Shown piece after piece: positions 26,080-57,179 of a stretch of 64,000 bases of DNA. This DNA is from Trypanosoma brucei (Eukaryota): positions 1,248,001 through 1,312,000 of the forward strand of contig CP000071.1 in NCBI GenBank assembly GCA_000002445.1. The letters are read 5' to 3'. Position 1 is the stretch's first letter. Every line of letters begins with the position of its first letter. The notes under the pieces are model-generated. The model worked only from the letters and a program-made list of their open reading frames with translations, made no database searches and was not told the origin of the DNA. The position numbers and the translations under genes are program-made.

Positions 26080-26089
26080 GCTTCCTTCC

Positions 26090-26135
26090 TTCCCCGAATA
26101 ATAATAATAATTATTATTATAATTACTACAACAAC
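26090..26135. repeat. (AAT/ATT)n low-complexity tract, representative of the 2.4-kb AT- and trinucleotide-rich spacer 26080-28523
   Basis: taataataataattattattataattactacaacaacg. Similar (CAA)n, (ATA)n and (CAT)n runs occur at 26625-26652, 26856-26880, 28253-28275 and 28396-28430. Confidence 0.8.
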
Positions 26136-34700: not shown

Positions 34701-36160
34701 ATTTTTTCCCTCTCCCGCTCTTCCTCGCGCCTTTTCTCCGCAAAAAGCGTATCCTCCACACTCACACCGCCGAGCCGCAGCGCATCACTCGGCCGTCGTA
34801 ACCTGTGACAGGTGAAGAGGTGTTTTGTATTTACATGTTCCCCACTTACCACAACCTCAACGGTCCGTTTTCGCGTTCCACCAAGAGGCATAGAAGGGTC
34901 CCACTTTATGGCAGCCTGGTACCAATTATCGTTTAGTTGAGAATCCGAATCACCTACAACTACTGGGAAACTCGGAAGGCGGTCTTGCAGCGAGGGAAGT
35001 GCAATTTTCGTGCTGACAGTTGCGAACGAGCTCATCCCTGCGGTCGTTACTGTGCGTGGGGTAGAGGCGTTGCGCGATGGTGCAGTGACCCTACCTTGGC
35101 TAATCTGTGGCAGACTCAATATGCTTTGATTCGATCCAACTGTTTCGCCAAGGATGTTAGCCTCAAGTCGTGACGGTCGGTTCGATCTTCTTCCATCCTC
35201 ATGCGGCTCTACCATGGGTTCCGCCTGATTTGGGGCATCTTGGATGCCCTCAAGTTTCAAACGAAGCGGATGGTTGGGTTCCAAGTACTGCTTACCAAGT
35301 TCTAAGGCCCTCGAAAAGCTGGTTTGCATTTCTCGTTCTATAGCCAACTGTTTATTACTATCAACTTCCAATGAAGAAATATGCTCAAGTTCACAGCCAA
35401 CATTGTACAGCGCGACCGGAAGGAGCTCACAAGCCTCCTTCATACAATTGACACCGAATCCCCCTGCCGATGGGTTGCTTACCGCAGTTTCCAACATCCG
35501 AACAGCGGCGCGGTGACGCCTGATCGCTCGGTCACACTGACCCGCGTTATGTAAGAGGACGGCAATCTGTATGGAACTCATCGCCTGTCGAAGAAGGTTC
35601 ACCTTCTCCTCAACGGCGACCAACTGCTGCACCGTCTTCGGGTCAGCGGCATCTCCTTGACTTGTCACCACGGCCCGCTGCTTCCTCACAACGGCGGCTA
35701 CATGTTGTTCTAGTTTGCATGCCTCTTTGGCCTGCTTCACAGCCTCCAGCATATCCCCTTGCGACGCATGACCTTGGTTGTTATGGGCAAACAATTCCCG
35801 CAACATAACATGCGTATCGCGAACAACTAACAAAATTTGCGCCGCTATAAGGGGAGGAATGTGCTCCTGTATGCTGATACTGGGTATGGAGGCGTCGCTT
35901 CCGTGATCATCCCTGTTACTAAGAGGAGCACCTTCCCGCTGCAGCCATATGCCGTCTGGAATACAGGCACGACGAACCTCATGCCCGATCTCAGCAGCTT
36001 TATCTAATGCCTGTATGGCTTTGGTCCGCACACCCATGGCGGCCTTCCAGTCAGGTCCGTCAACTACGCCGGGTGGAATATTACTGGAAGCGAGGAGGAA
36101 CTCCTCAATATTTTGTTTTGCCTCAATTTGCAACCGCTGGAGTTCATCAAGTCGTTCCAT
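31760..36160 (-). CDS. Large IQ-motif (calmodulin-binding) protein with TPR-like N-terminus, Lys-rich repeat region and acidic tract
   Basis: The 1466-aa ORF has at least 9 IQ-like motifs in its C-terminal third: IQCAWRVYQAR, VIQRHYKGHLDRRK, VIQQGWKNALR, LIQRVVRRFLA, IKLQSFARMAIAKR, RIQSASRAG, VIQRGVRRWIARRR and RIQAVMRGFLARR. Upstream lies an acidic TEETEESEETEESEESEEE tract. Four degenerate repeats G[DE]xLLAR...K-rich occupy aa 550-706. N-terminal helical repeats are TPR-like. Confidence 0.7.
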   Translation of the reverse strand: MERLDELQRLQIEAKQNIEEFLLASSNIPPGVVDGPDWKAAMGVRTKAIQALDKAAEIGHEVRRACIPDGIWLQREGAPLSNRDDHGSDASIPSISIQEHIPPLIAAQILLVVRDTHVMLRELFAHNNQGHASQGDMLEAVKQAKEACKLEQHVAAVVRKQRAVVTSQGDAADPKTVQQLVAVEEKVNLLRQAMSSIQIAVLLHNAGQCDRAIRRHRAAVRMLETAVSNPSAGGFGVNCMKEACELLPVALYNVGCELEHISSLEVDSNKQLAIEREMQTSFSRALELGKQYLEPNHPLRLKLEGIQDAPNQAEPMVEPHEDGRRSNRPSRLEANILGETVGSNQSILSLPQISQGRVTAPSRNASTPRTVTTAGMSSFATVSTKIALPSLQDRLPSFPVVVGDSDSQLNDNWYQAAIKWDPSMPLGGTRKRTVEVVVSGEHVNTKHLFTCHRLRRPSDALRLGGVSVEDTLFAEKRREEEREREKMLEIQRRRRRLRRQRSFLPAFVGPGKPGAAQGGSESKKKSRKSKEERNESTLEIDEGMLQADGDGFVGGEALLACIDRMKSRKDDKKKHKKAKGDDKDTKSDGDDDDDDGTVTDELSGDGTLTNLLNRVRARKKTSSGTGEIAIVTENSAADNLGAGDQLLARVKKAKRKTEKKKKVRKRVESEDLTKSLFNDFSSGDALLARLGLIGDDMKKKKKKKRSAKGHDKEEPTTSEEGGSLRASQAPLSDSQALKRKVKKRSHKRAADGGSSSVGSPLHDSALGMDKGDSDADLQESSGAFNLKSALAKKPKRRPRIDKAQSSDSTQRPNSGEAAASEREGSAHGLVCEDKKDEESDEEEESDEEDESDESDEEETEETEESEETEESEESEEETVEEKKERCEIELVNYFRQLFQWRMLSAIKIQCAWRVYQARVALRERQQILYKRVYRVQKAAAMCIEGFIHSVVAQKHLRLTQQRYATAMDERIERENREIKAALVIARYGKDYVARRRVQRYLCKLLRLNNMEELRLRVVAQTIVARWWRLVYPRRQYWRRREREIKEEQREEELLRKQNSAATVIQRHYKGHLDRRKVRLLRERLAEEYEQRQRKLNESIDLVRLCLQEYKRRRERLALEAAHREVKREEAAAVIQQGWKNALRLQVVHNALNHCRRTVRAVLLIQRVVRRFLADGTVRYLRRVQQVTSRDRLDEEYRIYRATIKLQSFARMAIAKRTARHRRAAIGRGFFYAAMRIQSASRAGTVRMQLGYALRLRRQAMELYQWLRHEQKLKIVAHIGAFLRARRSCQIAEERRCRRLTDKLIVRRVVRRQLFLDKCATVIQRGVRRWIARRRKKEAEERERALRALVLSCVTRIQAVMRGFLARRDYRLRSYLVQREARKREEMEEVAVELWVDEWRATMLQCEHDRRRIEVLEEKSRDVISWCFSRTSLPGAAALLVVKNIMRDTDDSDEELDSVYCTYREDS

Positions 36161-38609: not shown

Positions 38610-39260
38610 TTAACAGCACCCGCCACTCGCCTTACCAGCCGGCTGGTTGGAATTGGAAGGCGAAAGGTTCACTGGCTTTTTGGCTGCCGCGCCTGCATTA
38701 AGAGGCGGCCGCTTGCCCGTTGCAGCGGAATCGACCGGCGCCACAACATGGTCATACACCGATTTCGCAAGCCACTCAAAAGCCTTGTCTACGTTTGTTT
38801 TCTCCAACGCGGAGGTTTCGAGGAAAGACAAACCGTTTTCACGGGCAAAGCGGTCAGCCACTTCCTTTTTGATCACACGCAGGTGCTCAAGATCGCATTT
38901 GTTGCCAATGAGAAAGATAGAGCACGTGGCGGGTACGAAGGCGCGGAGCTCCTGAAGCCACGTGGAAATGGAATCAAATGATGTTTGGTTGGTGATGTCA
39001 TAGACGAGCATCGCCCCCTTCGCTCCGTGGTAAATCGAACGGGAGATGGCGCGGAAACGTTCCTGCCCAGCGGTATCCCAAATCTGCACTTTGGCGTCCC
39101 GCCCTTCAATTTTGATGCTTTTTGTCATAAACTCCACGCCGATAGTCGCCGGCGTGTCTTGACTGAACTCATCGGCTGTGTAGCGAGTCATGAGGTTGGA
39201 CTTCCCAACACCGCTGTCACCCACGATAACAACTTTGAACGTAAGGTTCATGTCTTCCAT
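38610..39260 (-). CDS. RAB11: Rab11-family small GTPase
   Basis: G1 GDSGVGKSNLMTRYTADEF (Rab11: GDSGVGKSNLLSRFTRNEF), the switch I/effector TIGVEF, WDTAGQERFRAI, GNKCDL, NGLSFLETSAL (Rab11: NGLSFIETSAL), ETSALE and a C-terminal GGCC prenylation motif. At 216 aa it has the Rab11-like N-terminal extension before the P-loop. Confidence 0.85.
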   Translation of the reverse strand: MEDMNLTFKVVIVGDSGVGKSNLMTRYTADEFSQDTPATIGVEFMTKSIKIEGRDAKVQIWDTAGQERFRAISRSIYHGAKGAMLVYDITNQTSFDSISTWLQELRAFVPATCSIFLIGNKCDLEHLRVIKKEVADRFARENGLSFLETSALEKTNVDKAFEWLAKSVYDHVVAPVDSAATGKRPPLNAGAAAKKPVNLSPSNSNQPAGKASGGCC

Positions 39261-41217: not shown

Positions 41218-41820
41218 TCATTTAACGCAAGGCACTCCACAAACATCAACATTATACATTTTCTTCTTAGTTTTTTCCACCAGAACCTTCTGCACATCAA
41301 ACAATGCGAGCATTTGAAACAATGCCGTAACACAGGCAGCAAATACCACCATGGAATGCAACGAACAGCTATGCACGGCTCTTCCCGACTTTCCAATCAC
41401 TGCTGTTTCATTATCAATAGTCCCCGATTCATTCAGCATGGAGGTTAGCTCCGCTGGGTTATTCAACGCATCAAAAAACTCCGAGTGGTTGAGAATTCCC
41501 AAGTCGCGGCAGTCCAAAACGACAAGTAACGTCAGACCGGTGGAATGAGTGAGGAAGCCAAATGTTATTAACAACACGAAGGTAATGATGTACAGCAAAT
41601 ACCGCTGCTTCAGGCTAATGCAATGCAGCGCGGCGTAGCAAAAGAGAGAAAGACTACAGAAAGCAACGCTGAGCATATGAAATACGGTGAAACGGTCCCG
41701 CTTCACTTCACGAAACACAACCACTGAAAGGCACACGGCGTAAATGGTTGTACTCAAAGCCAATAAAACGGCAGTGATCACGCTCATGAACCTACGGAAG
41801 CAATTACCGACGGAAGCCAT
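41218..41820 (-). CDS. Small 4-TM membrane protein (tetraspanin-like topology), hypothetical
   Basis: The 200-aa ORF has four hydrophobic helices: VITAVLLALSTTIYAVCLSVVVF, MLSVAFCSLSLFCYAALHCI, LLYIITFVLLITFGFLTHSTGLTLLVVL and MVVFAACVTALFQMLALF. A Cys-containing loop lies between TM3 and TM4. Confidence 0.5.
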   Translation of the reverse strand: MASVGNCFRRFMSVITAVLLALSTTIYAVCLSVVVFREVKRDRFTVFHMLSVAFCSLSLFCYAALHCISLKQRYLLYIITFVLLITFGFLTHSTGLTLLVVLDCRDLGILNHSEFFDALNNPAELTSMLNESGTIDNETAVIGKSGRAVHSCSLHSMVVFAACVTALFQMLALFDVQKVLVEKTKKKMYNVDVCGVPCVK

Positions 41821-43049: not shown

Positions 43050-46000
43050 TCATGCACTGCAATTGGGTAACACACCTACCACCACATGTCTCTCCCCAAC
43101 TTGAAGTACACCTCGTAAAAACAGTGCGGCAGCAGCAGCAGCGCTAATACCGAGAAAAATGAGGAGCCACCGCACCATCTGAGCAGCTTGCGCATTTATG
43201 TAGCAATCGACCGCACGCTGTTTCCGAAGCATGTGAACTCTCTGGTTCTGATAAAAGTCAATCAACCGCTGGCGGGCGGCAACCGCCTGTGCGCGCTCCA
43301 AGAATGCTTCGCAATGCCGCCCTTCCAGAGAAGCCCACGGGTTGCGTCGCGAAATTAGTTGATAGGGACAACTTCCTCTTTCGTAGACCGCCACTGAACT
43401 TAGGCGGCGGCGCGTGTTGCTTTTTTGAACATCTACACATGGTGACGCCCCCCAACGACATGCGCCACCTACTGTAGAAAACAGAACAGTCATGGCACGC
43501 TGACATAACTGGTGCTCTTCTGCCAACGGCGAGCTGGAGGCCGAAATAGACAATGTAGGCTCCAGCGTTTGCGGAGTTGTTACTCCGCCGTGCTCAGAGG
43601 TTTCCTCACGCCACGTAGAAGAGGTTACTGGCGTTTGTCGGATGCTAAACAAGGTCTTGGCTGGTGAACAACTTCTCAACCTTCCAGAGAACAATGCCGA
43701 CCGTACATGAGCCCAACGTTCCCTGCTCCGGCTTGTGGAAGTCACTACCGGCCTTGCCGATGGGGCAGAAGGAGACGGACTCCCGCATGTAGAGTACGAA
43801 TTCGCAGGCGGTACTGAGTGGTCAACTGCCGGCGGTGACGGTGATGCCGCCCGTGAGTTGAACCCATCTCCTACTCTGTTGTGCCGTAAATGGAGATGGT
43901 TGGAGCCTACCCGCCGCAGCCTATCTGATGTTGCCGCCCCTAGCGGTCCCGCATTTGCAGAGAGTTCAGTCTTAAGGAGTGAAAAGTACAACGCTGGTAC
44001 AAAGATTTGATAGCTACGTGGCTCCTGGTTGTGATGCAAGAACCAGTGCGAACCGGAGTGCTTTGGTTTGGGTCGTAGACCACACGTTAAAAAATCCCAA
44101 AGGAAGCCACAAACTTGGTTTCCCCGCTGCCGCCTTTTCGTCCGCTTTCTGTGCTTTAAACGACACTGGCGTCGGCTAGCCAATAAGCCACCAACGAGAA
44201 TGGCACCGCACGGCACAAGGAGGAAACAGGACGCGACAAACGACCATAAAGATCTCGAAACGACTGCCGGTTTGAACGAGGACACCAAACCCATAGCTGC
44301 CAGTACAACTAGCATGAGCTGCAACGCCAGGCTCAACGCGAATTCTACGGGTCCGGAGTACGGCCTACATACAACCAGGATAACAAGCATCCCGAGGTGA
44401 AGGATAACGGAGGCAATGAAGCCGGTCCAAGGACTCGCCAAACCGTCATCTTCCTGCATAACAGCAGAAAATATAACCACAGCAGTTTTTTGGGCCAGCA
44501 CAACAAGCTTGAAGTAACGCCAGGAGAAGGTGTACGGCGCATACAAAAAGTGCACCTCATTCTGTGAACTGTGAACTCTTCCATAATAATTTTTATGTCT
44601 CATGCGCTCACGACCACTTTGACTTACTCCTTCACGCGGCACTGTTCCCCGCGCTGGTTCCCACTTTCTGCCAAAGAAATTTCCTGAATGGTGAAATGCC
44701 TCTGCTGTATTTCCACCAATTGCAGGCACCACTTCCGCTGACCGCGCAGAACAGCTCCCTGAATCCTCAAGTGGATAGTGCTCCAAGGCCAGCAGCGCCT
44801 GTCGTGTGACGAGCCCGTAGAGTAAAATAAAGAATGTGGCATACGTAGTTGACGTGAGTAAGGCAGACGCGTAGAGAAAGAAGTTTACGCTGTCACAAGA
44901 GACATTCGATCCGACCATCAGCTTTCGTGCCTCGGTAGTGCTCCACTTTGAGGTATCAACCTCCAAAACGGAAGTAGACTTATTATCTGCTCCACAGGCG
45001 ACAGGAGCATTGTTGTCAACCACATCACGACAGGGGATGAGACCGATGGCACTCCGAATGAGCGGGGCGTACAGGAAGGAAACGAGAAGTAGCAAAGTAT
45101 AAAGAAACAAATGCCGAAACCACAGCTTTGCATCAAATAGCCACCGGCGACCGCCCTCTGAGAGACCAACTGAGAGCGACAACGCGAGAAAGAACGTCGT
45201 CAGAAGGAGCATGCTAACTGGGAAGTATATTAGCGGGCTGCAAAAAAGCGACTCAGTCGATTCCCACAGGCTCTTCCTTAGGAGAAAAGCAGCGGCAGTT
45301 CCACTTCCCAACAGTACCAGCAACTTCAACAGTGCCCACCATAATGAAAAGGCATGCGTTTCTCCATGCCGCCGCTGCATCATTTCCTGGTACGCCAATT
45401 CTGCTTTCGCACAACGCAGACGGGTCTCTTCCCTCTCTCGCTCTTCAACCGGTCTTTCCATGCCGCCTTCGCCATCCCTCCACACACACCCGTTGTGACT
45501 CGCAGCAATGTTCATCAGCGACTCAGCTACACGCTCCTCCACGGAATGTGGAGCCTGTTCCAAATGCCGGAGCTGCTCCAATAGTTGTGCCTGCCTTCGC
45601 TTCCCCCAGATGAGACGCAGTGTGAGACCAACAGCAGCTAACAAGCCCACAGAAACGGCACTGGCTGCAGCTATTGCCACCTTTGTGTCCGAGGGGATAG
45701 CACGCACCAGTTTCAACAGTGCGCTCCCGCTCTCGAGCACTTCCAATGAATGTTGTGCGTGAAGAAGCAACGTACATCCGGCCAAGAAAAAAACCGCGGT
45801 ACAGAGCGCATACGCAAACGCAATGAATTGGGGTGGACCTAGCACCGGCGCAAAAAGCACGACGAGGGAAAGCGGTGCCACAATGTTTGTGAGGGCAAAA
45901 ACCCTACGCAAATCTGGGGGCATCCACTTGGGCAAGTTCAGAGTGGAACCTTCAAACATGCGAGTCGTGTTATTATGTTTTGAAGTGCCATTGACTGTCA

Positions 46001-46181
46001 CGGCTACACCGCCACCATGGGAAATGGCATTCATCGCCCTGCCCACAAATCGAAGAAAGGAACTGTACGCTGGCGGAAAGACACTTGGAGCTATCAACAC
46101 TGTGAGATTGATGTATTGAACGTAGTTTGCCAACAACTCCACAACATCATATAGCATCGTGTCGAGACCTCCACCAATCAA
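43050..46181 (-). CDS. Polytopic membrane protein (1043 aa), paralog of the 48185-52291 gene
   Basis: At least 10 predicted TM helices. The N-terminus MIGGGLDTMLYDVVELLANYVQYINLTV...TLNLPKWMPPDLR parallels MTFVDLFDMTVAYVQYLYIMV...FTLPNWIPHDSRL in the neighbouring gene. The shared core includes VVCRPYSGPVEFALSLALQLMLVVLAAMGLVSS (vs MMVRPYARPVENWYSISHQLVLTFIGSLGVVGS) and EHYPLEDSG (vs DEYPLEKRI). The long cytosolic S/P-rich region ends in a terminal TM helix VRWLLIFLGISAAAAAALFL. Confidence 0.7.
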   Translation of the reverse strand: MIGGGLDTMLYDVVELLANYVQYINLTVLIAPSVFPPAYSSFLRFVGRAMNAISHGGGVAVTVNGTSKHNNTTRMFEGSTLNLPKWMPPDLRRVFALTNIVAPLSLVVLFAPVLGPPQFIAFAYALCTAVFFLAGCTLLLHAQHSLEVLESGSALLKLVRAIPSDTKVAIAAASAVSVGLLAAVGLTLRLIWGKRRQAQLLEQLRHLEQAPHSVEERVAESLMNIAASHNGCVWRDGEGGMERPVEEREREETRLRCAKAELAYQEMMQRRHGETHAFSLWWALLKLLVLLGSGTAAAFLLRKSLWESTESLFCSPLIYFPVSMLLLTTFFLALSLSVGLSEGGRRWLFDAKLWFRHLFLYTLLLLVSFLYAPLIRSAIGLIPCRDVVDNNAPVACGADNKSTSVLEVDTSKWSTTEARKLMVGSNVSCDSVNFFLYASALLTSTTYATFFILLYGLVTRQALLALEHYPLEDSGSCSARSAEVVPAIGGNTAEAFHHSGNFFGRKWEPARGTVPREGVSQSGRERMRHKNYYGRVHSSQNEVHFLYAPYTFSWRYFKLVVLAQKTAVVIFSAVMQEDDGLASPWTGFIASVILHLGMLVILVVCRPYSGPVEFALSLALQLMLVVLAAMGLVSSFKPAVVSRSLWSFVASCFLLVPCGAILVGGLLASRRQCRLKHRKRTKRRQRGNQVCGFLWDFLTCGLRPKPKHSGSHWFLHHNQEPRSYQIFVPALYFSLLKTELSANAGPLGAATSDRLRRVGSNHLHLRHNRVGDGFNSRAASPSPPAVDHSVPPANSYSTCGSPSPSAPSARPVVTSTSRSRERWAHVRSALFSGRLRSCSPAKTLFSIRQTPVTSSTWREETSEHGGVTTPQTLEPTLSISASSSPLAEEHQLCQRAMTVLFSTVGGACRWGASPCVDVQKSNTRRRLSSVAVYERGSCPYQLISRRNPWASLEGRHCEAFLERAQAVAARQRLIDFYQNQRVHMLRKQRAVDCYINAQAAQMVRWLLIFLGISAAAAAALFLRGVLQVGERHVVVGVLPNCSA

Positions 46182-47874
46182 AACATACAGATGGGAGGAG
46201 CTTTTCCCCTCCCTTTGTTCTTTCGGTTGTCTTTAAAAAAAAAAATAGTGAAACACAGTATTATGTAAAACAAAAGGGATGAGACAAAAGGGACGGTATG
46301 GCGGAAATAAAATACAAGTGTACAGCCTCACACATCTTCTCCGCAATCGATGTGAAGTGGAAAAGGTAAGACAGCAAACACACACAATAGGGGAAACATT
46401 CTTCACGGTACACGTAATCATATGTTCACGGATGGAGAGGAGACAGAGTTGCAATAATTTAATATAAGTTGTTAATTATGTATAATTGTATGTCTATGTG
46501 TGCTTATTTAAGAGTTTTACTACCATAATTTTGGCCCTCATCTCCATATAAATCTTGTGGTACATTTGCAAGCACCAGTACCTATTTCCTTTCTCATTTT
46601 TATTCCTTTCGCTTTAGCATTAGTTAGGTTACGATTATTATTATTATTACACTTTTTTTTTCGCACACTTCCCCGTTTTTCTTCGTCTATCCATCCCCGA
46701 GTTGCACAAGCAGCACGAGTAACATGAGCACCGGTATTGTTAGAAGCGGCAAACAAAAAAAAAGGAATTTGAAAAAAAAAATCAAAAACAAACACACAAA
46801 GTCATACAAGTCAAAGAAAAAAAACATTTACATACTGGCAGCGGGGCTAGTAGCGAGTATGGTTTAGCTATTTTCTTTCAACATTTGTTTTGCAGCTTTA
46901 CATAACCCCGTAGCATTTCGAGCGCCGTGTTGTGGGAGAAAATAAATCCAGGGGAGGAAGTCAACCACGTCTGAAAAAAAGGCGTGTGTGAAACCTCACG
47001 AGGCGACTCCACCAATTCCAAATATAAACACAAACACAAATACAGACACGGATACCACCAGTAACAAACAATGTTTCCCCCCCCTTTCTCCTCCAAAATA
47101 AAGACATATATTAAACCTCTCGCATTTTCGCATTTCAGGGCGCGCTCCCCTTTCCACTACAAGAGCATGCAATAGTAGGTGAAAAAGAAAAAAAAAAGAA
47201 AAAGTGGAAACCAAAAGACAAAACCTTTTCCGCACGCACACTCATGCGCGCTCACGTTCACATTCATACCAAATATTGTATACGAGTGACTTCGAAGGAG
47301 AGGTGCCCAGAGAGGGAGAAAGATGCACACAACCATCAGCATCACGCCTCACACTGGTGTGGAAACAATATTGATATCAGTAATGCTAGGGGAAAAAAAA
47401 AACACAAGTAATATTTTAAAAGGCCAAACCAAAAAATGTTTGATTCTCCCCTCCTCGATCCACCGAAAAGCAAGAATACATTTTCAGCCTCACTACGAAG
47501 ATATATACAATCATATATGCACTACAACGCGAGTGGTTGTACAATGAAAAGGACAAAGGCAAGAGATGGGGGGCAATGCAAAAAAAAAAAAAGGGGGCGT
47601 GTATGTTTATGAATATAGTTGGAAGAGCGAGATGTTATTCATATTGGAGTTGAGACTCCGGAAGAAGGTGAATACACATCAAGAGGCACTTGCAGGCAAA
47701 AATCGTGCACAGGCCCTTCCAGATGTAATTTCCCCCTTTCTCTGCTCCACATTCACTCAAAAATACAAACGCACAGGCAGAGCATCAGAAAGGAATAGTG
47801 CAACACATAAAAACTCGTAAGGACTTCATCACAAAAGGGGGAAAGTGAAGAAAAGATAGCAAATGCAACAAAAA

Positions 47875-47895
47875 ATATATATATATATATATATA
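47875..47895. repeat. (AT)10 microsatellite
   Basis: An alternating AT run in the intergenic spacer between the two membrane-protein paralogs. Confidence 0.85.
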
Positions 47896-48184
47896 CATTG
47901 CTCCTTAACTTCCTGCTTGCAGTTTACACAGCAACGCAAACAACCGACCCCCTTCGCTCTGTCCCGCAGACAGAAAATTTCATTATTTATCTGTTGCAGC
48001 TTTAAATGTATTACCAATAAATATTAACATGCACATATACGCAGTCACATACGATTATTTCTGTCCTTCAAATTGTTGGTTATTGTTCATGGGCATTCTT
48101 TTCTCTTCCCTTATTTCATTTTCTACGCACCCGTTAAAATGGCACTCAAACCGAAATGAAGTTGCTTGCATGCGCTTTCTGTTA

Positions 48185-51100
48185 CTACCACCGCAAGATT
48201 TCTTGTTCCGTAACTGGCGTAGTACAGTTCTCAATTTCAACTCTTCCCTTTGGATGCAACTTCAATTTGCATCCGTTTTTGAAATCCATGCCACATAACT
48301 CACGTATTTTGAAACCATCGACAGCTTCGCCTTTAAGGACATCACGCCGCACTCGCTCCTTCACTAGTCTGTTTCTACACACCCACCGCTCTAAAGCCAT
48401 CACGTTGTTTGGCGGTAAGGCAGCGGGTGATGACAAACTGCTGCAGCAACAATTACGAGTGAACTCCTCCCATGATTTGTAACCAAATAGTTGATTGTGC
48501 ACACTGTAAGCACTCTGGGCGTTTGTTAAACTAATATTGTCTCCCTTGTACATCATTCCTCCAATGCACATGGCTAGGGACAGCGTTGAAAAGAGGCAAA
48601 GCGCCACAAAGAAAATTTGCATGTAGCGTCTGATACTCATAGCGATGCGGTGGTCCACAGCCATCTGGAGAGATTCCAACTTCCCTGCCTCAGAATTATA
48701 TTCGTCAACCAACTGTTGTCGAAGCAGGTAATGTCGTCGCAATTTCGGCATATTTTCTGCATTCATATTAGCCGCTCCCCTCACCAGCGCGCGGGCAGAC
48801 GAGACATCCATCCACGATTTTCTTTTCGCAGATGGAGAACCTGCCATTTTCAAGGCAGCGTCCAACGTTACCGATTGTCGTCTCCCTGTTGTTGTGTCCT
48901 TGGGCGACCCCTCAGCTTCGGCTGACTCGCGAGATCCGGTTTCCCTATACTTCTCCAGCGGGTCGGGTATGTCTTCCAGTAGCCTTTGAACAAAAGCCTC
49001 CCAGTTCCCTTCACTTTCTCCCTCAAGGGCGACATGAGGTGCGAACTCGGGGCAGATTGACGGGCGCCGCTCGGTGACAGTAGTGTCTTTAAGATCACGA
49101 GGCAGAAGACGATCTAAATCGGCAGCCTTCAGTTCAGCGAGTGCTGCGCATAGCTGTTCCTTCGAGAGCATGGCGGATATGCGGTCTGAGACATCACTGG
49201 TTATTGTCTGACCGTATGGGTTAACGTTACCTTCCTTAGCGACTGGTAAGTTGCTTGCCACGACAGCCAGTGCGCTGCTCGGGCTATTTGACCCCTTTGT
49301 CTTACCACTACCTTCCTTTGCTGTTTTTGCGGCGGTTACCGCTCTGCTCGATGGGCCAACAAGGGGATTCCAACATTTCTTCTTGTGTTCCACGAGTTTA
49401 GCGAAAAATTGACTTGGTTCATATGGGCTCGACGGACCCTCATCACCTCCAGCGCTTTGGCGTATCGCCGGTACATCACACCCCTCGGCCTTAGCCGCCA
49501 AGAACTGAGACTCGGAAGGAGTGATCCAAAATGGCCTCTCCGCGATGCCAGCCGTCATTTTGAGGGTTCTTCGACTTTGCAGCACCTCCCCATAACGTAG
49601 AGTGTTGCTGTGTACATGAAACGCCTTTCCACACTGCCGCATCCAACGAAGCATTACAGAGAAACAAGAGGGCTTTCCTTTTGTGGCGTCATCTTCCTTC
49701 TTAGCAGAATCGTACTCTTCGCCATGCTGCGTTTCATGGCGCCAACCATCCAACGCGTTAGAGGGAACTGCCACCCCTGGTGGATAGCCGTCGTCAGGCA
49801 AGTAGTCGTCCCCTTCCCTTATTAACGATGACAGTACCGCCTTCAGTTCACCCCTTTTAACTGCTGTCTGTTCGTAGAGCTCATCATCCATCCCACCCCC
49901 CTCACCTTCACCTTCACCTTCGCCACAATCATGGGACAGTGGAACTTCTTTGTATCCACGGAAGTATTCCTGGGGTTCGAAGGATCGTTTGTCACCAAAA
50001 TAATCGTCTTTCATGACCTTTTCCTTCTTGTCAGTCTCTTCGGGTGCATTATGTTCATCCGCAAATACTACAGCTGTTCCTATATCGGCACCATCCGAAG
50101 GCCCTGAAGCCGGTGCCCCCTCTCGATCCGCACGATTCCCACTTCTTTGTCTCGTGTTATCCCCTTTCACCCCACCTCCTGCCGCGGGCAAACTTGCTAA
50201 AACTTGAGGATTCTGTGCAGGTAGACCCGTCTCCCTTCCGTTCGAAGAATCGTTCACTTCGGCGCCTGGTTGCGGGTTATTGGCCATATCCCCCGGTGAT
50301 TGCGCAGAACCAACTGTAGTACCATCTCCACGTGGGGGTAAATCAGGGTCAGTACACGCAGTTGCTTGCCCCTTGCAGTTAGGGTTGTCAAGGCTTTCAC
50401 CCACCACCACGTTATCAGGCGATTGGTTTTCAGCAGTGTCTGCCACAGTTTCGAAATCGCGCTTAAGACGACTCTGTAGTCGCTCCACGCGTTGACGGTC
50501 GTTACGAAAGGTAAGTACAGACCCCACGATAAGGGCAAACATGGGAGCAACAATCATGAGGGCAACCGCAGTTATGGTGACGGCATTTGGAACAAGCTCT
50601 CTGGTCGACATACTCCCCACAACACCGAGAGATCCAATAAACGTAAGAACCAATTGATGCGAAATACTGTACCAGTTTTCCACAGGACGTGCATAAGGCC
50701 TGACCATCATGAGGTACGTCAGGTACACCAAGCAGATGCATGTGATGAGACTAATACCCAACCATGCAACCACTGACCCTGGACCCCGTCGCATCAGTAC
50801 ACCAATAAGGACCAGCAAGATCCTTTGCAAAAGAAACAAAATACGTGACCGACGAAACTGATACTTAAACGCCACGTACAGCGAAGACGAGACGTTTCTG
50901 GACATCAAAGTTTTTTCATAATAAAGCTCCTTTTTATTGAACTCATCACAGATACGCTTTTCAAGTGGGTACTCGTCCACCAGGATGCTCGTAGCTCGAT
51001 CGATTGATAGTATGAGGAAAGCAGGATATGCGACAAAGTAAGCAATGAATACCAACGACATGGACATCTTGTAGAAGTTGTCTATCTCACGGCAGGATAC

Positions 51101-52291
51101 TCGAGGATCGTATGCCAGACGTTTTTCACGAATATTACCACCACATAGCTTAATTTGCAGCGATTTAGAACATTTCTGCGTGTGCTCCGTGAAGTTGCAA
51201 GCAAGACAAGGTTTTTCAGTTGTATCCCAGGAGTTTGAAAAGTTTCTCGACCCCCCTACAGCGGATTTCATTCTGATCATCATCTCTCCTTCATTACAAG
51301 ACACCTCAGTGCACACTAACAACCTCATCATATTCAGTGTCACCGGAGTAAAGGCAATGGAGAGGGCAATCAGCGCAGTACTGGTGAGTGCTTTGGACAA
51401 TTTGTCCGTCAGTTTAACCTGTATCTGTCTCCCCTTTTGAGAAATACTGAGTAAAGCCCATATGACAATTACGCTACTGGCAACAAAAAATGTAATAGCC
51501 ACTGCTTTATCATAACGGCCTATTTTCAAGGCTTCAGCTGAATCTTCTGTTGGCAATGTAACGTATATGAAGTATCCCGCTGCAATAGCAATGCCGCAAA
51601 CGAGCAGTTGGATTAAAATGCTGCGCCACCTACGAGCCTGGACATACACCTCTTTTTTTGCTTCGTAAGCGAGCAAGGCAGACGTTGCCCTCTTGTTTTG
51701 CGTCACACGTCTCACAGCTTTTTGTATTGCGGATACCTCTTCCCGATGCTCGGCCCCCCGATCGGCGGCCATTTCCAATCGTCTCTTTTTTTTCTGACTC
51801 CGACGTAACATGAATAGATAGATGATGCCTGCAACAAAGAGAACAATGAGACCCACTCCACCAGCGAGAACAAGAATCCTTTGTGTTTCGCGGGTCATTA
51901 TTTCCATTTTTTCTGCGCGAGGCGTGGAGACAAGCACTGCGCCAAGTACTGTAAAGAAAACGGCCACCACTTGCGCGAAAAGACAGAGGGACGCGCCCGT
52001 CGAAGACACAATCAAGAACCCTCCAAGAGAGATGACCATGGGAATAATGACAACAATAAATGTGTAGTTTAGGCGACTGTCGTGGGGAATCCAGTTGGGA
52101 AGTGTGAACATTTGTTCCCTTTTTTGTGAATCCCCCGTTAGATAATCATACGATATATGTAATAATGCCAACTGGCCTTTCGAAAGCGGCTGCAGAATTA
52201 TTTCTGGGAAGCTGTTTGGTGAGAGAGAGACCATGATGTACAAGTATTGCACGTATGCCACCGTCATGTCAAATAGGTCAACGAAAGTCAT
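48185..52291 (-). CDS. Polytopic membrane protein (1368 aa), paralog of the 43050-46181 gene, with longer cytosolic region and Cys-rich C-terminal tail
   Basis: It has the same N-terminal TM core as the upstream paralog, a roughly 600-aa hydrophilic region (GEGEGEGEGGG, acidic and basic stretches), a late TM helix MQIFFVALCLFSTLSLAMCIGGMMY, and a roughly 120-aa C-terminal segment with CCC, CRNR, CGMDFKNGC and C in ENCTTP. Confidence 0.7.
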   Translation of the reverse strand: MTFVDLFDMTVAYVQYLYIMVSLSPNSFPEIILQPLSKGQLALLHISYDYLTGDSQKREQMFTLPNWIPHDSRLNYTFIVVIIPMVISLGGFLIVSSTGASLCLFAQVVAVFFTVLGAVLVSTPRAEKMEIMTRETQRILVLAGGVGLIVLFVAGIIYLFMLRRSQKKKRRLEMAADRGAEHREEVSAIQKAVRRVTQNKRATSALLAYEAKKEVYVQARRWRSILIQLLVCGIAIAAGYFIYVTLPTEDSAEALKIGRYDKAVAITFFVASSVIVIWALLSISQKGRQIQVKLTDKLSKALTSTALIALSIAFTPVTLNMMRLLVCTEVSCNEGEMMIRMKSAVGGSRNFSNSWDTTEKPCLACNFTEHTQKCSKSLQIKLCGGNIREKRLAYDPRVSCREIDNFYKMSMSLVFIAYFVAYPAFLILSIDRATSILVDEYPLEKRICDEFNKKELYYEKTLMSRNVSSSLYVAFKYQFRRSRILFLLQRILLVLIGVLMRRGPGSVVAWLGISLITCICLVYLTYLMMVRPYARPVENWYSISHQLVLTFIGSLGVVGSMSTRELVPNAVTITAVALMIVAPMFALIVGSVLTFRNDRQRVERLQSRLKRDFETVADTAENQSPDNVVVGESLDNPNCKGQATACTDPDLPPRGDGTTVGSAQSPGDMANNPQPGAEVNDSSNGRETGLPAQNPQVLASLPAAGGGVKGDNTRQRSGNRADREGAPASGPSDGADIGTAVVFADEHNAPEETDKKEKVMKDDYFGDKRSFEPQEYFRGYKEVPLSHDCGEGEGEGEGGGMDDELYEQTAVKRGELKAVLSSLIREGDDYLPDDGYPPGVAVPSNALDGWRHETQHGEEYDSAKKEDDATKGKPSCFSVMLRWMRQCGKAFHVHSNTLRYGEVLQSRRTLKMTAGIAERPFWITPSESQFLAAKAEGCDVPAIRQSAGGDEGPSSPYEPSQFFAKLVEHKKKCWNPLVGPSSRAVTAAKTAKEGSGKTKGSNSPSSALAVVASNLPVAKEGNVNPYGQTITSDVSDRISAMLSKEQLCAALAELKAADLDRLLPRDLKDTTVTERRPSICPEFAPHVALEGESEGNWEAFVQRLLEDIPDPLEKYRETGSRESAEAEGSPKDTTTGRRQSVTLDAALKMAGSPSAKRKSWMDVSSARALVRGAANMNAENMPKLRRHYLLRQQLVDEYNSEAGKLESLQMAVDHRIAMSIRRYMQIFFVALCLFSTLSLAMCIGGMMYKGDNISLTNAQSAYSVHNQLFGYKSWEEFTRNCCCSSLSSPAALPPNNVMALERWVCRNRLVKERVRRDVLKGEAVDGFKIRELCGMDFKNGCKLKLHPKGRVEIENCTTPVTEQEILRW

Positions 52292-52975: not shown

Positions 52976-52997
52976 GAGGAGGAGGAGGAGGAGGAGG
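52976..52997. repeat. (GGA)7 trinucleotide repeat
   Basis: gaggaggaggaggaggaggagg in intergenic DNA upstream of the 48185-52291 gene. Confidence 0.85.
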
Positions 52998-54404: not shown

Positions 54405-57179
54405 TCACTTTGGTGCACTCTGGATCACTCGGTAAACCCCAATAATTGCCCCAACAAAACCAACAATGGCACCCGTTGGATGGATCATCGCTTTTAGAGG
54501 AGCATCCCGCTTCCCTGTGTCGTACCCCCCAAAGCAGTACATCACAGCAAGGTAAAACTCCGCTAAGTAACTCACCTGAAGCCAAATGGTAGCACTCCAG
54601 TTAGAATGAGATCGCACCAACCATATGTAGTTGAAAAGCCTTCGCATCAGCCACGGAATAAACAGAAAGACAACCTCAGCGCGTCCTGTTATCGACTTAG
54701 ACGCTTTTTGCCGTACAGCGGCATTCCCATTGGTCTCAACTTCCTCCGTGTCAGTGACGCCTTTTTCCTCCGCTGTTGTGTCATCACCACCCTCCTCGAG
54801 CTTTTCACCCTGTTCGTCGGGTGATGTCATCTCAACAAAGAGCTTGCCGCATACACGACAGGCGGGGGCGATGTTCTCCGGATCAGCAGCCTCAAAGTAA
54901 CCCGGGGAGGAGCAAATGGGCACGCCGAAATCGAGATCCACATCTGGGAAGTACAAATTTGCCTGCCGCCGGATAACGAGCTCACGGAAAAGCATTACGG
55001 AGCCCCTTGTGTCGGGGTCCTTACAACCACAGCGAAACCTGGGATTGTCTCTGACATTTGTATACTTGTACCAACCGGGGTTCAACAGACGAATTGTGTT
55101 CAGGAGGACGTCAATGCTGGCAACTATCAACCATAGCCAGTGGCAGTGCCGTTGAAGAAGCGCACGGTTTTTCTCAACCGGTGACAGGTTTAAAAAGTGC
55201 TCAGATGAAAGCAGGAGGAGGTCGCGGAGCAGACGGCGGGCAATAGTCGCGATACTGCGCACGGCCTGAAGTAGTATGAGAGGTGTGCTGAACTGGAGAA
55301 TACCCTTGCGTCGACTCGCAGGTTTCCCCATCTCTGCTGCAAGACCTCTCTCCCTCTCTTCTTCCCTGTCGTCAGAGGGAGAGACAGTACCATTAGACTC
55401 TAAGTGGTTATCACCTTCATCAAAGGCTGCACCGAGTGAGAACATGTTCTCTTCTGCACCTATATCATCACCGTTATCAACAGCACTCCCACAACGTGCA
55501 AACTTGGCTCTAGAGGGTTGGTTCTTTGACATTTTGTTCATACTGTCACCTTCACCTTGGTGAGGCAACCGCAGAGCATCACCAAGCTTCGGTTCGTACG
55601 GCACAGTTTGGTACATTTTAAAATAACTCTGATGAGAGTCATCAGGATTTCTGCTCGTTGAGAAACCCTCGTTGTATGTGTCGCCTTTGGGTTTCCCTTC
55701 TTGCATCAAACTATAATTAAGCGAACCACCGCAAATGCTGCTGGGTGCCGTATTGTTGTTGTGAGCGATTGATGTGTTGTTGCTGTTGCTTGACTCATCA
55801 TCGGCTCCAGTGCATCGGAGTGGCCGCAGTAACGTGGCAGGTTTTGATAGTGACGCCCTTGTGGTGTTACCAATACCAACTGCATACATCTCAGTGGCGG
55901 CAGGGTATAATGACGGAGGGGTCGCGGAAGGGGCGAGAGAACCCGAAGTGAGCGCCTCAGTTCGCAGCGGATCACGAACCATGAGACCTTTACCTTCTGA
56001 TAGTGTTGAGAAACCCGCCACCTTGCGGTCTCCATCTTCTTTAGCCTCCTCGCTTTGCAACGCCATATCAGACGCTTTAATGGCACCAGAAACTCCCACC
56101 TCCTTCTGTTGTATCCCGGTCAGACTCGGACCAGTAGTAACTAATTTCGCATCGATAGAATGCAACTCTGAGACGAACTGACGAGGAAACTCCACACGAG
56201 CGACGTGCTCATATGTGTCACCAGGAACCAAAACTTCCCTATTCACAAACTGACCGGCGCTTCCTCCCCCAACACCATTGTTGTCCCACCCGATAAGTCG
56301 TCGCATCACGGACCCCGGTGGAAGGGATAAGTATCGGCATAAGAACGCCTTAAATTCACCCTTCACCTCCCTCATAGTCCTTCCATATTTCAAGGCAAGT
56401 CTTTCGTAAACCTCCTGCAGGTAAAAAGCATTCACTATCCAACGCCCCAACTTGAACAAGCTGCGTCCGTGGCGAATGGTGTTAATATTTTTTCGAAAAC
56501 GTTCTGCCCAGTAATCTGCAGTCTCCTCCGAACCCTGTGGGAGGATTGACGGCCGCATCAAAAGACAAATTAAAAGATGCAAACTACACTGCATACACTT
56601 AAATAATCTGTCCCGACCGTCTGAAGCTGTCAACAAATAAAGAAATGTGCTTCGTGGAAGGTCATTAGGAATCAAGAACGCCATGTTGTCATCAGCACCC
56701 TGCAAGAAACCACCTACTCGCACCTGCGTGCGGTCAAAGTTGTCACCATCTCTACGTGAAACAACCCTGTTAGCAATATCTGCCTCCTCATCGTCGTCCA
56801 GACCATCTTCATCTTTTTCTGTGCCAGTGTTTGGATAAATAACTGTCATGAATGGGTCAACGGTGCCTGAATCTAAAAAACCTTCTGGAGAGCCATCGCC
56901 GGCCGGATCGGCTGCGTCGTCTTTACGCTTTGAACTCTCTTTGGGGAAGCCAAGTTCCTCCTGCAGAAGCTGTGAAGAAGTTCCTATTTTCACCACTCTC
57001 TTACGCGGTACTGGTGCTTTAATCGCAGATGATCCAGCGACCGCGTCAGGCAAAAACTCCTCCTCATTATTATTATTATTGTTATTATGTGCCCCAGCAA
57101 CAGCAGCGTCGCATCCGCTGTTGTTACTGTCAGCCATTAATCCGCAGCTACTGCACGGTAGTTCGTGGCTGATAACCAA
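54405..57179 (-). CDS. Giant PEX11-family protein (glycosome/peroxisome membrane-remodelling family) with about 550-aa insertion and Cys cluster
   Basis: aa 188-246 DGRDRLFKCMQCSLHLLICLL...HGRSLFKLGRWIVNAFYLQE matches the PEX11 N-terminal signature (human PEX11A QGRDRLFRATQYTCMLLRYLL...TGRKWFRLGNVVHAIQA; yeast GREKVLRLLQY). The C-terminus KAMIHPTGAIVGFVGAIIGVYRVIQS matches the PEX11 C-terminal helix NPGIIGLGGLVSSIAGMITVAYPQ. Between them lie a long disordered insert and RCGCKDP...CSSPGYF...CRVCGKLF. An alternative start at Met166 (MAFLIPNDL..., about nt 56684) would put GRDRLF at the canonical position. Confidence 0.6.
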   Translation of the reverse strand: MVISHELPCSSCGLMADSNNSGCDAAVAGAHNNNNNNNEEEFLPDAVAGSSAIKAPVPRKRVVKIGTSSQLLQEELGFPKESSKRKDDAADPAGDGSPEGFLDSGTVDPFMTVIYPNTGTEKDEDGLDDDEEADIANRVVSRRDGDNFDRTQVRVGGFLQGADDNMAFLIPNDLPRSTFLYLLTASDGRDRLFKCMQCSLHLLICLLMRPSILPQGSEETADYWAERFRKNINTIRHGRSLFKLGRWIVNAFYLQEVYERLALKYGRTMREVKGEFKAFLCRYLSLPPGSVMRRLIGWDNNGVGGGSAGQFVNREVLVPGDTYEHVARVEFPRQFVSELHSIDAKLVTTGPSLTGIQQKEVGVSGAIKASDMALQSEEAKEDGDRKVAGFSTLSEGKGLMVRDPLRTEALTSGSLAPSATPPSLYPAATEMYAVGIGNTTRASLSKPATLLRPLRCTGADDESSNSNNTSIAHNNNTAPSSICGGSLNYSLMQEGKPKGDTYNEGFSTSRNPDDSHQSYFKMYQTVPYEPKLGDALRLPHQGEGDSMNKMSKNQPSRAKFARCGSAVDNGDDIGAEENMFSLGAAFDEGDNHLESNGTVSPSDDREEERERGLAAEMGKPASRRKGILQFSTPLILLQAVRSIATIARRLLRDLLLLSSEHFLNLSPVEKNRALLQRHCHWLWLIVASIDVLLNTIRLLNPGWYKYTNVRDNPRFRCGCKDPDTRGSVMLFRELVIRRQANLYFPDVDLDFGVPICSSPGYFEAADPENIAPACRVCGKLFVEMTSPDEQGEKLEEGGDDTTAEEKGVTDTEEVETNGNAAVRQKASKSITGRAEVVFLFIPWLMRRLFNYIWLVRSHSNWSATIWLQVSYLAEFYLAVMYCFGGYDTGKRDAPLKAMIHPTGAIVGFVGAIIGVYRVIQSAPK

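What the first reader, a model, noticed from the sequence alone, without database searches (positions are those of the whole stretch)
43050..52291. Tandem duplicated polytopic membrane proteins (1043 and 1368 aa) with conserved TM core and terminal TM anchor but divergent cytosolic domains
Both genes start with the same motif (M..[GV]DL.DM..[YA]V.[YE]L..YVQY) followed by a [FT]LN?LP[KN]W[MI]P.D.R loop. They share core helices, including [VM]V[CR]RPY[SA].PVE, and both end with a single C-terminal TM helix preceded by L[RL][KR]QQ?.VD.Y. The roughly 500-600-aa hydrophilic regions between the core and the last helix are unrelated, and the downstream copy has an extra Cys-rich C-terminal segment of about 120 aa (CCC...C.N.C...CGMDFKNGC). 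I recognise no transporter or channel family. Tandem paralogs with divergent cytosolic modules may mean subfunctionalised surface or organellar membrane proteins.
Basis: seen in the sequence. Interest (0 to 1): 0.6.

Follow-up and report, generated by a model that had tools for sequence, protein, structure and literature searches.

The report
Ancient tandem TRP-like (Flc-type) membrane paralogs
Two neighbouring Trypanosoma brucei genes labelled "hypothetical" are very old duplicates of a large multi-pass membrane protein, distantly related to the fungal Flc/Pkd2 "TRP-like" proteins implicated in calcium flux, and one copy has lost the family's cysteine-rich outer domain.

Summary
Windows 43050-46157(-) (A, really 1035 aa; the 1043-aa TTG start is a bacterial-code artefact) and 48185-52291(-) (B, 1368 aa) are true paralogs on Trypanosoma brucei chromosome 8. 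A B-ortholog-only profile scores A's core at 123 bits; hydropathy-preserving shuffles reach at most 13.6.

The duplication is ancient. There is no nucleotide similarity, both copies have orthologs across Trypanosoma, and T. cruzi keeps the same B-then-A tandem.

The family is recognisable. An exhaustive profile search found 277 relatives in kinetoplastids, a haptophyte and Rozella. Many hit Pfam PF06011 (TRP; fungal Flc/Pkd2 type) co-linearly, some above threshold.

The ancestral architecture is about 11-12 TM helices with a 7-Cys outer loop, a cytosolic linker, a helix plus TM, and a 7-Cys C-terminal ectodomain. B keeps all of it. A lost the inner loop and the tail together. So the Cys-rich tail is ancestral, not an addition, and the long linkers are trypanosomatid expansions.

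No solved structure shares the fold.

The best functional guess, by analogy only, is a cation/Ca2+-conducting or membrane-stress-related protein. I rate it a new variant of a known kind, of moderate interest.

The parts
48185..52291 (-). Gene B, 1368 aa plus stop. It keeps the full ancestral architecture. 99% identical to T. b. equiperdum DPX39_080045400; cluster member UniProt Q57VZ9 (TREU927).
50495..52291 (-). B polytopic core, aa 1-599. It has an N-terminal helix, the LPNWIPHDSR motif, and about 11 TM helices. The core is alignable with A and with 277 relatives.
51092..51313 (-). B Cys-rich beta-containing loop between TM6 and TM7, aa 327-400. It holds 7 family-conserved Cys (327, 332, 362, 365, 374, 383, 400) and sequons N350 and N366. 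Inferred to be extracytosolic.
50675..50701 (-). B motif RPYARPVEN, aa 531-539, between TM9 and TM10. P532 and E538 are invariant. It lies inside the region that aligns to PF06011 positions of about 280-400.
48731..50494 (-). B hydrophilic linker, aa 600-1187. It is acidic (net -19) and poorly conserved apart from the DDYFGDKRSFEPQEYF island at 49961-50008. Inferred to be cytosolic and largely disordered.
48551..48730 (-). B conserved helix with QxAVD, continuing into the terminal TM (aa 1188-1247).
48185..48550 (-). B C-terminal Cys-rich domain, aa 1248-1368. It holds 7 conserved Cys (1281-1283, 1305, 1333, 1341, 1356) and sequons N1252 and N1355. The domain is ancestral and found in more than 100 relatives. 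Inferred to be extracytosolic.
43050..46157 (-). Gene A, 1035 aa plus stop (UniProt Q57W00). This is the derived paralog, lacking the Cys-rich tail. The true start is ATG at 46157, not TTG at 46181.
44178..46157 (-). A polytopic core, aa 1-660. It contains LPKWMPPDLR and RPYSGPVEF (nt 44340-44366). Residues 544-633 in the 1043-aa numbering give a direct sub-threshold PF06011 hit.
44895..45032 (-). A residual TM6-TM7 loop, aa 376-421. Only the flanking Cys (C376, C421) align with conserved family cysteines. The inner 4-5 Cys segment is deleted.
43275..44177 (-). A hydrophilic linker, aa 661-961. It is basic (net +29) and rich in Ser and Arg.
43095..43274 (-). A conserved helix (QRAVD) plus terminal TM, aa 962-1021. 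Only 14 residues follow it (43050-43094).
46182..48184 (-). B-A intergenic spacer, 2.0 kb, GC 0.39. Polypyrimidine tracts (minus strand) lie at 47181-47597 and a (TA)n run at 47867-47906. These are probably RNA-processing signals, which is inference.

Best explanation
A and B are ancient tandem paralogs in a Trypanosoma brucei polycistronic unit. They belong to a eukaryote-wide family of large polytopic membrane proteins that is a divergent branch of the Pfam PF06011 superfamily ("TRP", the fungal Flc1-3 / S. pombe Pkd2 type).

The ancestral protein, best seen in compact members of about 800 aa such as the Neobodo one, has these parts in order:
- a short N-terminal helical segment;
- about 11 TM helices, with a 7-Cys beta-containing loop between TM6 and TM7;
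- a cytosolic linker;
- a long helix that runs into a final TM;
- a 7-Cys C-terminal domain.

Helix parity puts the loop and the C-terminal domain on the same, extracytosolic side. There they probably form one disulfide-bonded ectodomain.

B retains everything and has expanded the cytosolic linker to about 590 aa. A retains the core and the last TM, but lost the inner loop and the C-terminal domain together.

By analogy with PF06011 proteins, the core most likely forms, or controls, a cation/Ca2+-permeable, membrane-stress-responsive conduit in the plasma membrane or secretory pathway. On that view the ectodomain is a sensing or assembly module that only B still has, and the divergent linkers are regulatory or interaction platforms.

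Shown here: paralogy, age, synteny, family membership of relatives, domain loss, and the absence of any solved structural relative.

Inferred: topology, ectodomain pairing, disorder of the linkers, and all of the function.
For: - Organism and layout. The best hit is 99% identical to a T. b. equiperdum protein, and all large ORFs are on one strand.
- Paralogy. BLASTP gives E=1e-17. A B-only profile scores A at 123 bits, against at most 13.6 bits for hydropathy-preserving shuffles.
- Age. There is no nucleotide similarity. A and B have separate ortholog sets in T. congolense, T. cruzi and other species. In an NJ tree the A clade is sister to Trypanosoma B plus Leishmaniinae/Phytomonas B-type proteins. 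T. cruzi has the same order eIF2B - B - A - ~200 aa - Rab, and its A ortholog matches at E=4e-154.
- Family size. There are 277 representatives at E<=1e-3 and 72 at E<=1e-30. They include Porcisia, Phytomonas, Neobodo, Papus, Apiculatamorpha, Prymnesium and Rozella.
- PF06011 link. P0127 scores 34.4 bits against a gathering score of 28.5. 13 of 44 compact members hit it, best E=6.3e-9, and no other family recurs. Precomputed PF06011 is recorded for P0104, P0134 and P0160. A itself scores 18.2 bits. All hits are co-linear: profile 280-282 maps to the same column in a kinetoplastid-like sequence, a haptophyte and T. brucei A.
- Ancestral tail. The Cys-tail HMM, built from B orthologs only, matches the extreme C-terminus of more than 100 relatives.
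- Co-loss. The 7+7 Cys are conserved at 0.75-0.96 family-wide. B has all of them. A keeps only the two flanking loop Cys.
- Fold. The Neobodo model has pLDDT 85 and pTM 0.83, with loop and tail confidently beta-containing and the linker below pLDDT 50.
- Function by analogy. Reconstituted S. pombe Pkd2 passes Ca2+ on membrane stretch. Flc proteins are linked to Ca2+ release, FAD import and cell-wall or membrane integrity. One relative has an N-terminal EF-hand fusion.
Against: - Neither window protein reaches the PF06011 gathering score: A has 18.2 bits and B has no hit. The link is transitive through relatives.
- The architecture departs from described PF06011 proteins. There is no signal peptide plus ML-like lipid-binding domain, there are more TM helices, and there is an extra terminal TM plus ectodomain.
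- The molecular activity of PF06011 proteins is itself unsettled. FAD carrier, Ca2+ channel and lipid flippase have all been proposed.
- I found no family-wide conserved acidic residue inside a TM helix that would mark a selectivity filter.
- I obtained no localisation or phenotype data for these genes.
- The NJ position of the fast-evolving A clade could be a long-branch effect.
Confidence: 0.55

Rival explanations
1. The proteins are receptors or sensors rather than conduits. The Cys-rich ectodomain binds an external or lumenal ligand, and the polytopic core relays this to the cytosolic linker, which recruits signalling partners.
For: - A conserved disulfide-rich ectodomain sits on a multi-pass core.
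- The Rozella member is fused to an RGS domain at 27.8 bits against a cutoff of 23.9, as in 7TM-RGS receptors.
- The long linkers carry short conserved islands that look like docking motifs.
Against: - The RGS fusion is seen in one lineage only.
- From my own knowledge, trypanosomatids are generally held to lack heterotrimeric G proteins.
- Paralog A keeps a well-conserved core without the ectodomain, which argues that the core has an activity of its own.
Confidence: 0.17
2. The proteins are transporters or flippases of the ER/Golgi, as proposed for yeast Flc proteins (FAD import, or lipid or acyl-CoA flipping), rather than ion channels.
For: - The PF06011 relationship holds.
- Yeast Flc proteins localise to ER/Golgi. 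They are linked to FAD import, sphingolipid synthesis and membrane detergent sensitivity.
- A Cys-rich lumenal domain would suit an oxidising ER lumen.
Against: - The flippase and FAD roles in yeast are indirect and unproven.
- The only reconstitution data for a PF06011 protein show Ca2+ permeation.
Confidence: 0.2
3. The two genes are a recent tandem duplication whose cytosolic parts diverged fast, with B gaining a new Cys-rich module.
For: The genes are adjacent, in the same orientation, and share a core.
Against: - No nucleotide similarity remains.
- Protein identity is 20%.
- Each copy has its own orthologs, and the tandem is syntenic in T. cruzi.
- The Cys tail is present in bodonids, prokinetoplastids and non-kinetoplastid relatives.
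Confidence: 0.02
4. The similarity is an artefact of hydrophobic composition, and the two ORFs are unrelated membrane proteins.
For: Identity is low (20%), and Pfam on the two proteins alone gives only scattered sub-threshold hits.
Against: - The real sequence scores 123 bits. Window-shuffled controls score at most 13.6 bits and the reversed sequence -7.4 bits.
- 35 columns are invariant across 11 sequences, including polar motifs.
- Hundreds of relatives match at E<=1e-10.
Confidence: 0.01

Closest known systems
Pfam PF06011 "TRP" family: S. cerevisiae Flc1/Flc2/Flc3/YOR365C, S. pombe Pkd2/Trp663/Trp1322, C. neoformans Flc1, A. nidulans TrpR
   Same: - Both are large polytopic cores followed by a poorly conserved, largely disordered cytosolic region.
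- The sequence-profile relationship is co-linear over roughly TM5-TM11, corresponding to PF06011 positions of about 150-405. It exceeds the gathering score in some relatives and is sub-threshold in A.
- Both carry a disulfide-stabilised extracytosolic module attached to the core.
   Different: - There is no N-terminal signal peptide plus Ig-like/ML-like lipid-binding domain (PF14558). Here the ecto-module is instead a Cys-rich TM6-TM7 loop plus a C-terminal domain brought out by an extra terminal TM.
- The core has about 11-12 TM helices rather than 9.
- The window proteins do not reach the Pfam threshold.
- The FLC family is described in the literature as fungal-specific, whereas this branch is in kinetoplastids, a haptophyte and Rozella.
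Canonical TRP / polycystin channels (TRPP2/PKD2, TRPML; 6-TM tetrameric, Pfam PF08016/PF00520), including the T. brucei homologs XP_845719 and XP_846922 listed by Prole and Taylor 2011
   Same: The link is by name only, through Pfam's label for PF06011 and a claimed distant relation. Both are discussed as Ca2+-permeable channels.
   Different: - There are no Pfam hits to PKD_channel or Ion_trans.
- The helix number and topology differ.
- These two genes are absent from published parasite TRP catalogues.
Compact Cys-tail relatives of about 800 aa, such as Neobodo designis P0159 and the environmental P0104/P0134/P0160 (an unnamed subfamily)
   Same: The core, 7-Cys loop, QxAVD helix plus terminal TM and 7-Cys C-terminal domain are the same as in B.
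   Different: - Their linker is about 70-100 aa, against about 590 aa in B and about 1200 aa in Leishmaniinae homologs.
- A lacks the ectodomain parts altogether.

Membership tests
Pfam PF06011 (TRP; Flc/Pkd2-like) | The protein itself scores at or above the Pfam gathering score (28.5 bits). | tested here: not met
   A scores 18.2 bits (E=0.0012) and B has no hit. Only 1 of 11 Trypanosoma family members hits at all.
Pfam PF06011 (TRP; Flc/Pkd2-like) | Transitive homology: clear relatives of the protein are PF06011 members, and the matches fall in the same register. | tested here: met
   The relatives were found at E down to 1e-50 and beyond. P0127 scores 34.4 bits, above the gathering score. 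13 of 44 hit with best E=6.3e-9. Precomputed PF06011 is recorded on P0104, P0134 and P0160. Co-linear mapping includes A.
Pfam PF06011 (TRP; Flc/Pkd2-like) | N-terminal signal peptide plus an ML-like / Ig-like lipid-binding domain (TRP_N, PF14558). This is typical of the family but not universal. | tested here: not met
   No PF14558 or PF02221 hit occurs in A, B or 44 relatives. The N-terminus is a short helical segment of about 70 aa.
Pfam PF06011 (TRP; Flc/Pkd2-like) | A TM domain of about 9 helices followed by a non-conserved cytosolic C-terminal tail. | tested here: inconclusive
   The core has about 11 helices and is followed by a non-conserved hydrophilic region, but the chain then re-enters the membrane and ends outside. 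No structural superposition on a Pkd2 or Flc model was possible, because the AFDB library was unavailable.
Pfam PF06011 (TRP; Flc/Pkd2-like) | Ca2+ permeation or a role in Ca2+ homeostasis, osmotic response and cell-surface integrity. | not testable with these tools
   Only literature on the fungal proteins is available.
Canonical TRP / polycystin channels (6-TM, pore loop, tetramer) | Sequence match to PKD_channel or Ion_trans, and the S1-S6 fold. | tested here: not met
Cys-tail subfamily (unnamed; defined here) | A 7-Cys TM6-TM7 loop, a QxAVD helix plus terminal TM, and a 7-Cys C-terminal domain. | tested here: met
   B has all 14 Cys and all three modules. A meets only the QxAVD helix plus TM criterion, so it is a derived member.

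The most novel reading that the evidence does not exclude
These genes represent a previously undescribed, eukaryote-wide class of roughly 12-TM membrane proteins. The class is defined by a bipartite disulfide-rich ectodomain (TM6-TM7 loop plus a post-TM C-terminal domain) and a fold with no solved relative. It would be only nominally related to fungal Flc/Pkd2.

In trypanosomes the B/A pair would form a new kind of mechanically or ligand-gated Ca2+ entry pathway. B would be the ectodomain-bearing sensor subunit, and A a tail-less partner or modulator.
Probability: 0.2. Interest if true: 0.7.

Novelty: new variant of a known kind. Interest (0 to 1): 0.45.

Why it matters
- It gives two "hypothetical conserved" T. 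brucei genes a family context and a testable hypothesis: a role in Ca2+ or membrane-stress handling. Published surveys of parasite Ca2+/TRP channels do not list these two proteins.
- It extends a family described as fungal-specific to kinetoplastids and other protists, in a distinct architecture.
- The B/A pair is a natural experiment, with the same core present with and without the ectodomain. That could help show what the extracytosolic module does in the whole PF06011 superfamily, whose molecular activity is still disputed.
- The family has no solved structure. The compact Neobodo-type members model confidently and would be good targets for one.

Tried and rejected
- Direct Pfam scans of A and B gave only scattered sub-threshold hits. 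The Ctr, SHR3, 8xMP, DUF6249 and V_ATPase_I hits were seen in only one or two of 11 members, so I dismissed them.
- The word-indexed homolog searches saw only Trypanosoma orthologs. Even with a 44-sequence profile they added only three compact relatives. The exhaustive profile search was what opened up the family.
- PDB sequence searches with both profiles found nothing significant. The Shaker and NavAe1p pore matches at E 0.06-0.2 are noise level.
- The AFDB Foldseek library was not available. I therefore could not make the key structural comparison with Pkd2/Flc AlphaFold models.
- The nucleotide dot-plot equivalents gave no signal.
- Literature searches by UniProt and RefSeq accession found nothing, as did searches by inferred gene ID and the held TrypTag supplements.
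- The IDs Tb927.8.4350 and Tb927.8.4360 are my inference from the position of TbRab11 (Tb927.8.4330) and are not verified.
- Rfam found nothing in the window.
- Model coordinates were not exposed to scripts, so loop-tail contacts and pore geometry were not examined.

Full report
**Context**

The window is Trypanosoma brucei chromosome 8. The B protein is 99% identical to T. b. equiperdum DPX39_080045400. The exact A sequence is deposited for TREU927, T. equiperdum and T. b. gambiense. All 20-odd large ORFs lie on the minus strand, as expected for a kinetoplastid polycistronic unit. Neighbours include a Rab11-like GTPase ending in GGCC, an IQ-motif protein and an eIF2B-like subunit. TbRab11 is Tb927.8.4330. 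By gene order A and B would then be about Tb927.8.4350 and 4360. This is my inference and is not verified.

**Checking the observation**

ORF B (48185-52291, 1368 aa) and ORF A (43050-46181) exist as described. A's 1043-aa length comes from a TTG start that only the bacterial code allows. The deposited protein is 1035 aa and starts at ATG 46157.

BLASTP with compositional adjustment aligns the two over about 720 residues at 20% identity, E=1e-17. It finds the terminal helix/TM separately at E=0.065.

As a control for hydrophobic composition, I built a profile from the eight B-type orthologs only. It scores A's real core at 123.3 bits (E about 6e-40). Reversed A scores -7.4 bits. Across 300 shuffles done within 20-residue windows, which keep the hydropathy profile, the best score is 13.6 bits.

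An 11-sequence alignment has 35 invariant core columns. Hydropathy gives matching helix patterns in both proteins.

The conserved element is QxAVD, about 12 residues before the last TM. A's linker is about 300 aa, not 500-600.

**Age of the duplication**

No nucleotide similarity remains between the genes. A and B each have their own orthologs in T. congolense and T. cruzi. B also has orthologs in T. vivax, T. grayi, T. rangeli and T. melophagium.

In T. cruzi the gene order is eIF2B-like, a gene of about 900 aa, B (1464 aa), A (1004 aa), a gene of about 200 aa, then the Rab. This is the same order as in the window. The T. cruzi A gene matches the window's A at E=4e-154.

In an NJ tree of full-length cores, the A clade contains only Trypanosoma sequences. 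It is sister to a clade holding Trypanosoma B together with the Leishmaniinae and Phytomonas B-type proteins. The duplication is therefore at least as old as the genus and possibly older. The caveat is that the fast-evolving A branch may be misplaced.

**The family**

The word-indexed database search saw only Trypanosoma. The exhaustive profile search with the core alignment found 277 cluster representatives at E<=1e-3, 168 at E<=1e-10 and 72 at E<=1e-30.

Named members come from these organisms:
- Porcisia (2025 aa) and Phytomonas (1676 aa);
- the free-living bodonid Neobodo designis (815 aa);
- the prokinetoplastids Papus and Apiculatamorpha;
- the haptophyte Prymnesium parvum;
- the early-diverging fungus Rozella allomycis.

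One environmental relative lies on a 15-kb contig with 11 tightly packed same-strand genes, which looks kinetoplastid-like.

**Link to a known family**

Pfam on A alone gives PF06011 (TRP) at 18.2 bits, below the 28.5-bit cutoff. B gives nothing.

The relatives do hit PF06011:
- P0127 scores 34.4 bits, above the cutoff. P0077 scores 27.3 and P0104 scores 25.7.
- 13 of 44 compact members hit it (best E=6.3e-9), and no other family recurs.
- The database's precomputed Pfam column assigns PF06011 to P0104, P0134 and P0160.

The hits are co-linear. PF06011 positions 150-152 map to Neobodo residues 210-212 in three proteins. Positions 280-282 map to residues 418-420 in P0077, in the Prymnesium protein and in T. 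brucei A. Random hydrophobic matches would not keep register across such distant sequences.

I therefore regard the family as a divergent branch of the PF06011 superfamily, while noting that the window proteins themselves fail Pfam's own threshold.

**Architecture and what differs between the paralogs**

I built sub-profiles from the Trypanosoma alignment and searched them against the distant hits. The helix-plus-terminal-TM module appears near the C-terminus of about 75 relatives. The Cys-rich tail profile, built from B orthologs only, matches the extreme C-terminus of more than 100. These include compact proteins of about 800 aa whose linker is only about 70-100 aa.

Family-wide, seven cysteines in the TM6-TM7 loop and seven in the tail are conserved at 0.75-0.96. 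B has all 14. The A lineage keeps only the two flanking loop cysteines and has deleted the inner loop segment and the whole tail. So the tail is ancestral and A is the derived copy. The joint loss suggests the loop and the tail work as one unit.

**Structure models**

An AlphaFold2 model of B's core from 11 sequences was mediocre (pLDDT 66, pTM 0.56). The Neobodo protein, modelled with 44 sequences, gave pLDDT 85 and pTM 0.83. That model shows:
- N-terminal helices;
- about 11 TM helices;
- a beta-containing loop at residues 279-341;
- a low-confidence linker at 572-631;
- a 60-residue helix (635-694) that runs into the last TM;
- a confidently modelled, beta-containing C-terminal domain at 701-813.

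Counting helices, the loop and the tail fall on the same side of the membrane, and the linker on the other. Four of B's eight N-glycosylation sequons lie in the loop or tail. Together with the cysteines, this fits an extracytosolic position. This topology is inferred and was not measured.

The linkers differ sharply. A's is basic (net +29, rich in Ser and Arg) and B's is acidic (net -19). Both are poorly conserved, apart from an island (DDYFGDKRSFEPQEYF in B, FVPALYF in A).

**Comparison with solved structures**

Canonical TRP channels do not match. The AlphaFold-database library was unavailable, so the obvious comparison with Pkd2/Flc models could not be run.

**Function**

Nothing was found in the literature about these two genes. 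Published parasite channel catalogues list other T. brucei TRP homologs.

For PF06011 proteins:
- By AlphaFold, S. pombe Pkd2 has a signal peptide, an Ig-like lipid-binding domain, a nine-helix TM domain and a disordered tail.
- Reconstituted Pkd2 lets Ca2+ through when the membrane is stretched.
- Yeast Flc proteins are ER/Golgi proteins tied to FAD import, hypotonic Ca2+ release, cell-wall integrity and possibly lipid flipping.
- The FLC family is called fungal-specific.

Two fusions in relatives point to signalling. One environmental member has an N-terminal EF-hand, and the Rozella member has an N-terminal RGS domain.

My best explanation is a cation/Ca2+-conducting or membrane-stress-responsive polytopic protein. 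In it, a Cys-rich ectodomain takes the place of the fungal lipid-binding domain. B would be the complete form and A an ectodomain-less derivative. A receptor role and a transporter or flippase role remain live alternatives.

**Verdict**

The family is identifiable, the Cys tail is ancestral, and the duplication is ancient.

I rate it a new variant of a known kind. It is of moderate interest to trypanosome cell biology and to anyone working on what PF06011 proteins do.

Noticed in passing
window 41218-41820 (-): A 200-aa multi-TM ORF with no Pfam match lies between A and the Rab gene. T. cruzi has a ~202-aa gene at the same syntenic position (L003 19152-19760), so it is probably a real conserved small membrane protein.
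   Followed up: partly
window 38610-39260 (-): A Rab GTPase of 216 aa (Ras family, 203 bits) with a Rab11-like switch II region and a C-terminal GGCC prenylation motif. It is probably TbRab11 (Tb927.8.4330), which anchors the inferred gene numbering.
   Followed up: partly
window 46158-46181 (-): The TTG start that the ORF listing assigned to paralog A comes from using the bacterial code on a eukaryotic genome. The deposited protein starts 8 codons downstream, at ATG 46157.
   Followed up: yes
window 46182-48184: The B-A intergenic spacer is 2 kb with GC 0.39. It has several polypyrimidine tracts on the coding strand (47181-47597) and a (TA)n run (47867-47906). These probably act as trans-splicing and polyadenylation signals.
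   Followed up: no
window 26001-28000: This stretch has the lowest GC in the window (0.34, against about 0.45-0.53 elsewhere). It lies around two short ORFs (25504-26079 and 27366-27947).
   Followed up: no
window 31760-36160 (-): A 1466-aa protein whose only Pfam signal is IQ calmodulin-binding motifs near its C-terminus (E=1.3e-14).
   Followed up: no
P0096 (Rozella allomycis) residues 370-437; P0098 residues 59-112: Two distant family members carry N-terminal fusions: an RGS domain in Rozella and an EF-hand in an environmental sequence. These hint at links to G-protein or Ca2+ signalling.
   Followed up: partly
window 52976-52997 and B aa ~790-800 (about nt 49892-49924): Simple repeats occur here: a (CCT)n tract on the coding strand upstream of B, and a GEGEGEGEGGG run inside B's linker.
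   Followed up: no
window 54405-57179 (-): A 924-aa ORF with no Pfam match lies immediately upstream of B. T. cruzi has a 901-aa gene at the same position (L002 6495-9200).
   Followed up: no
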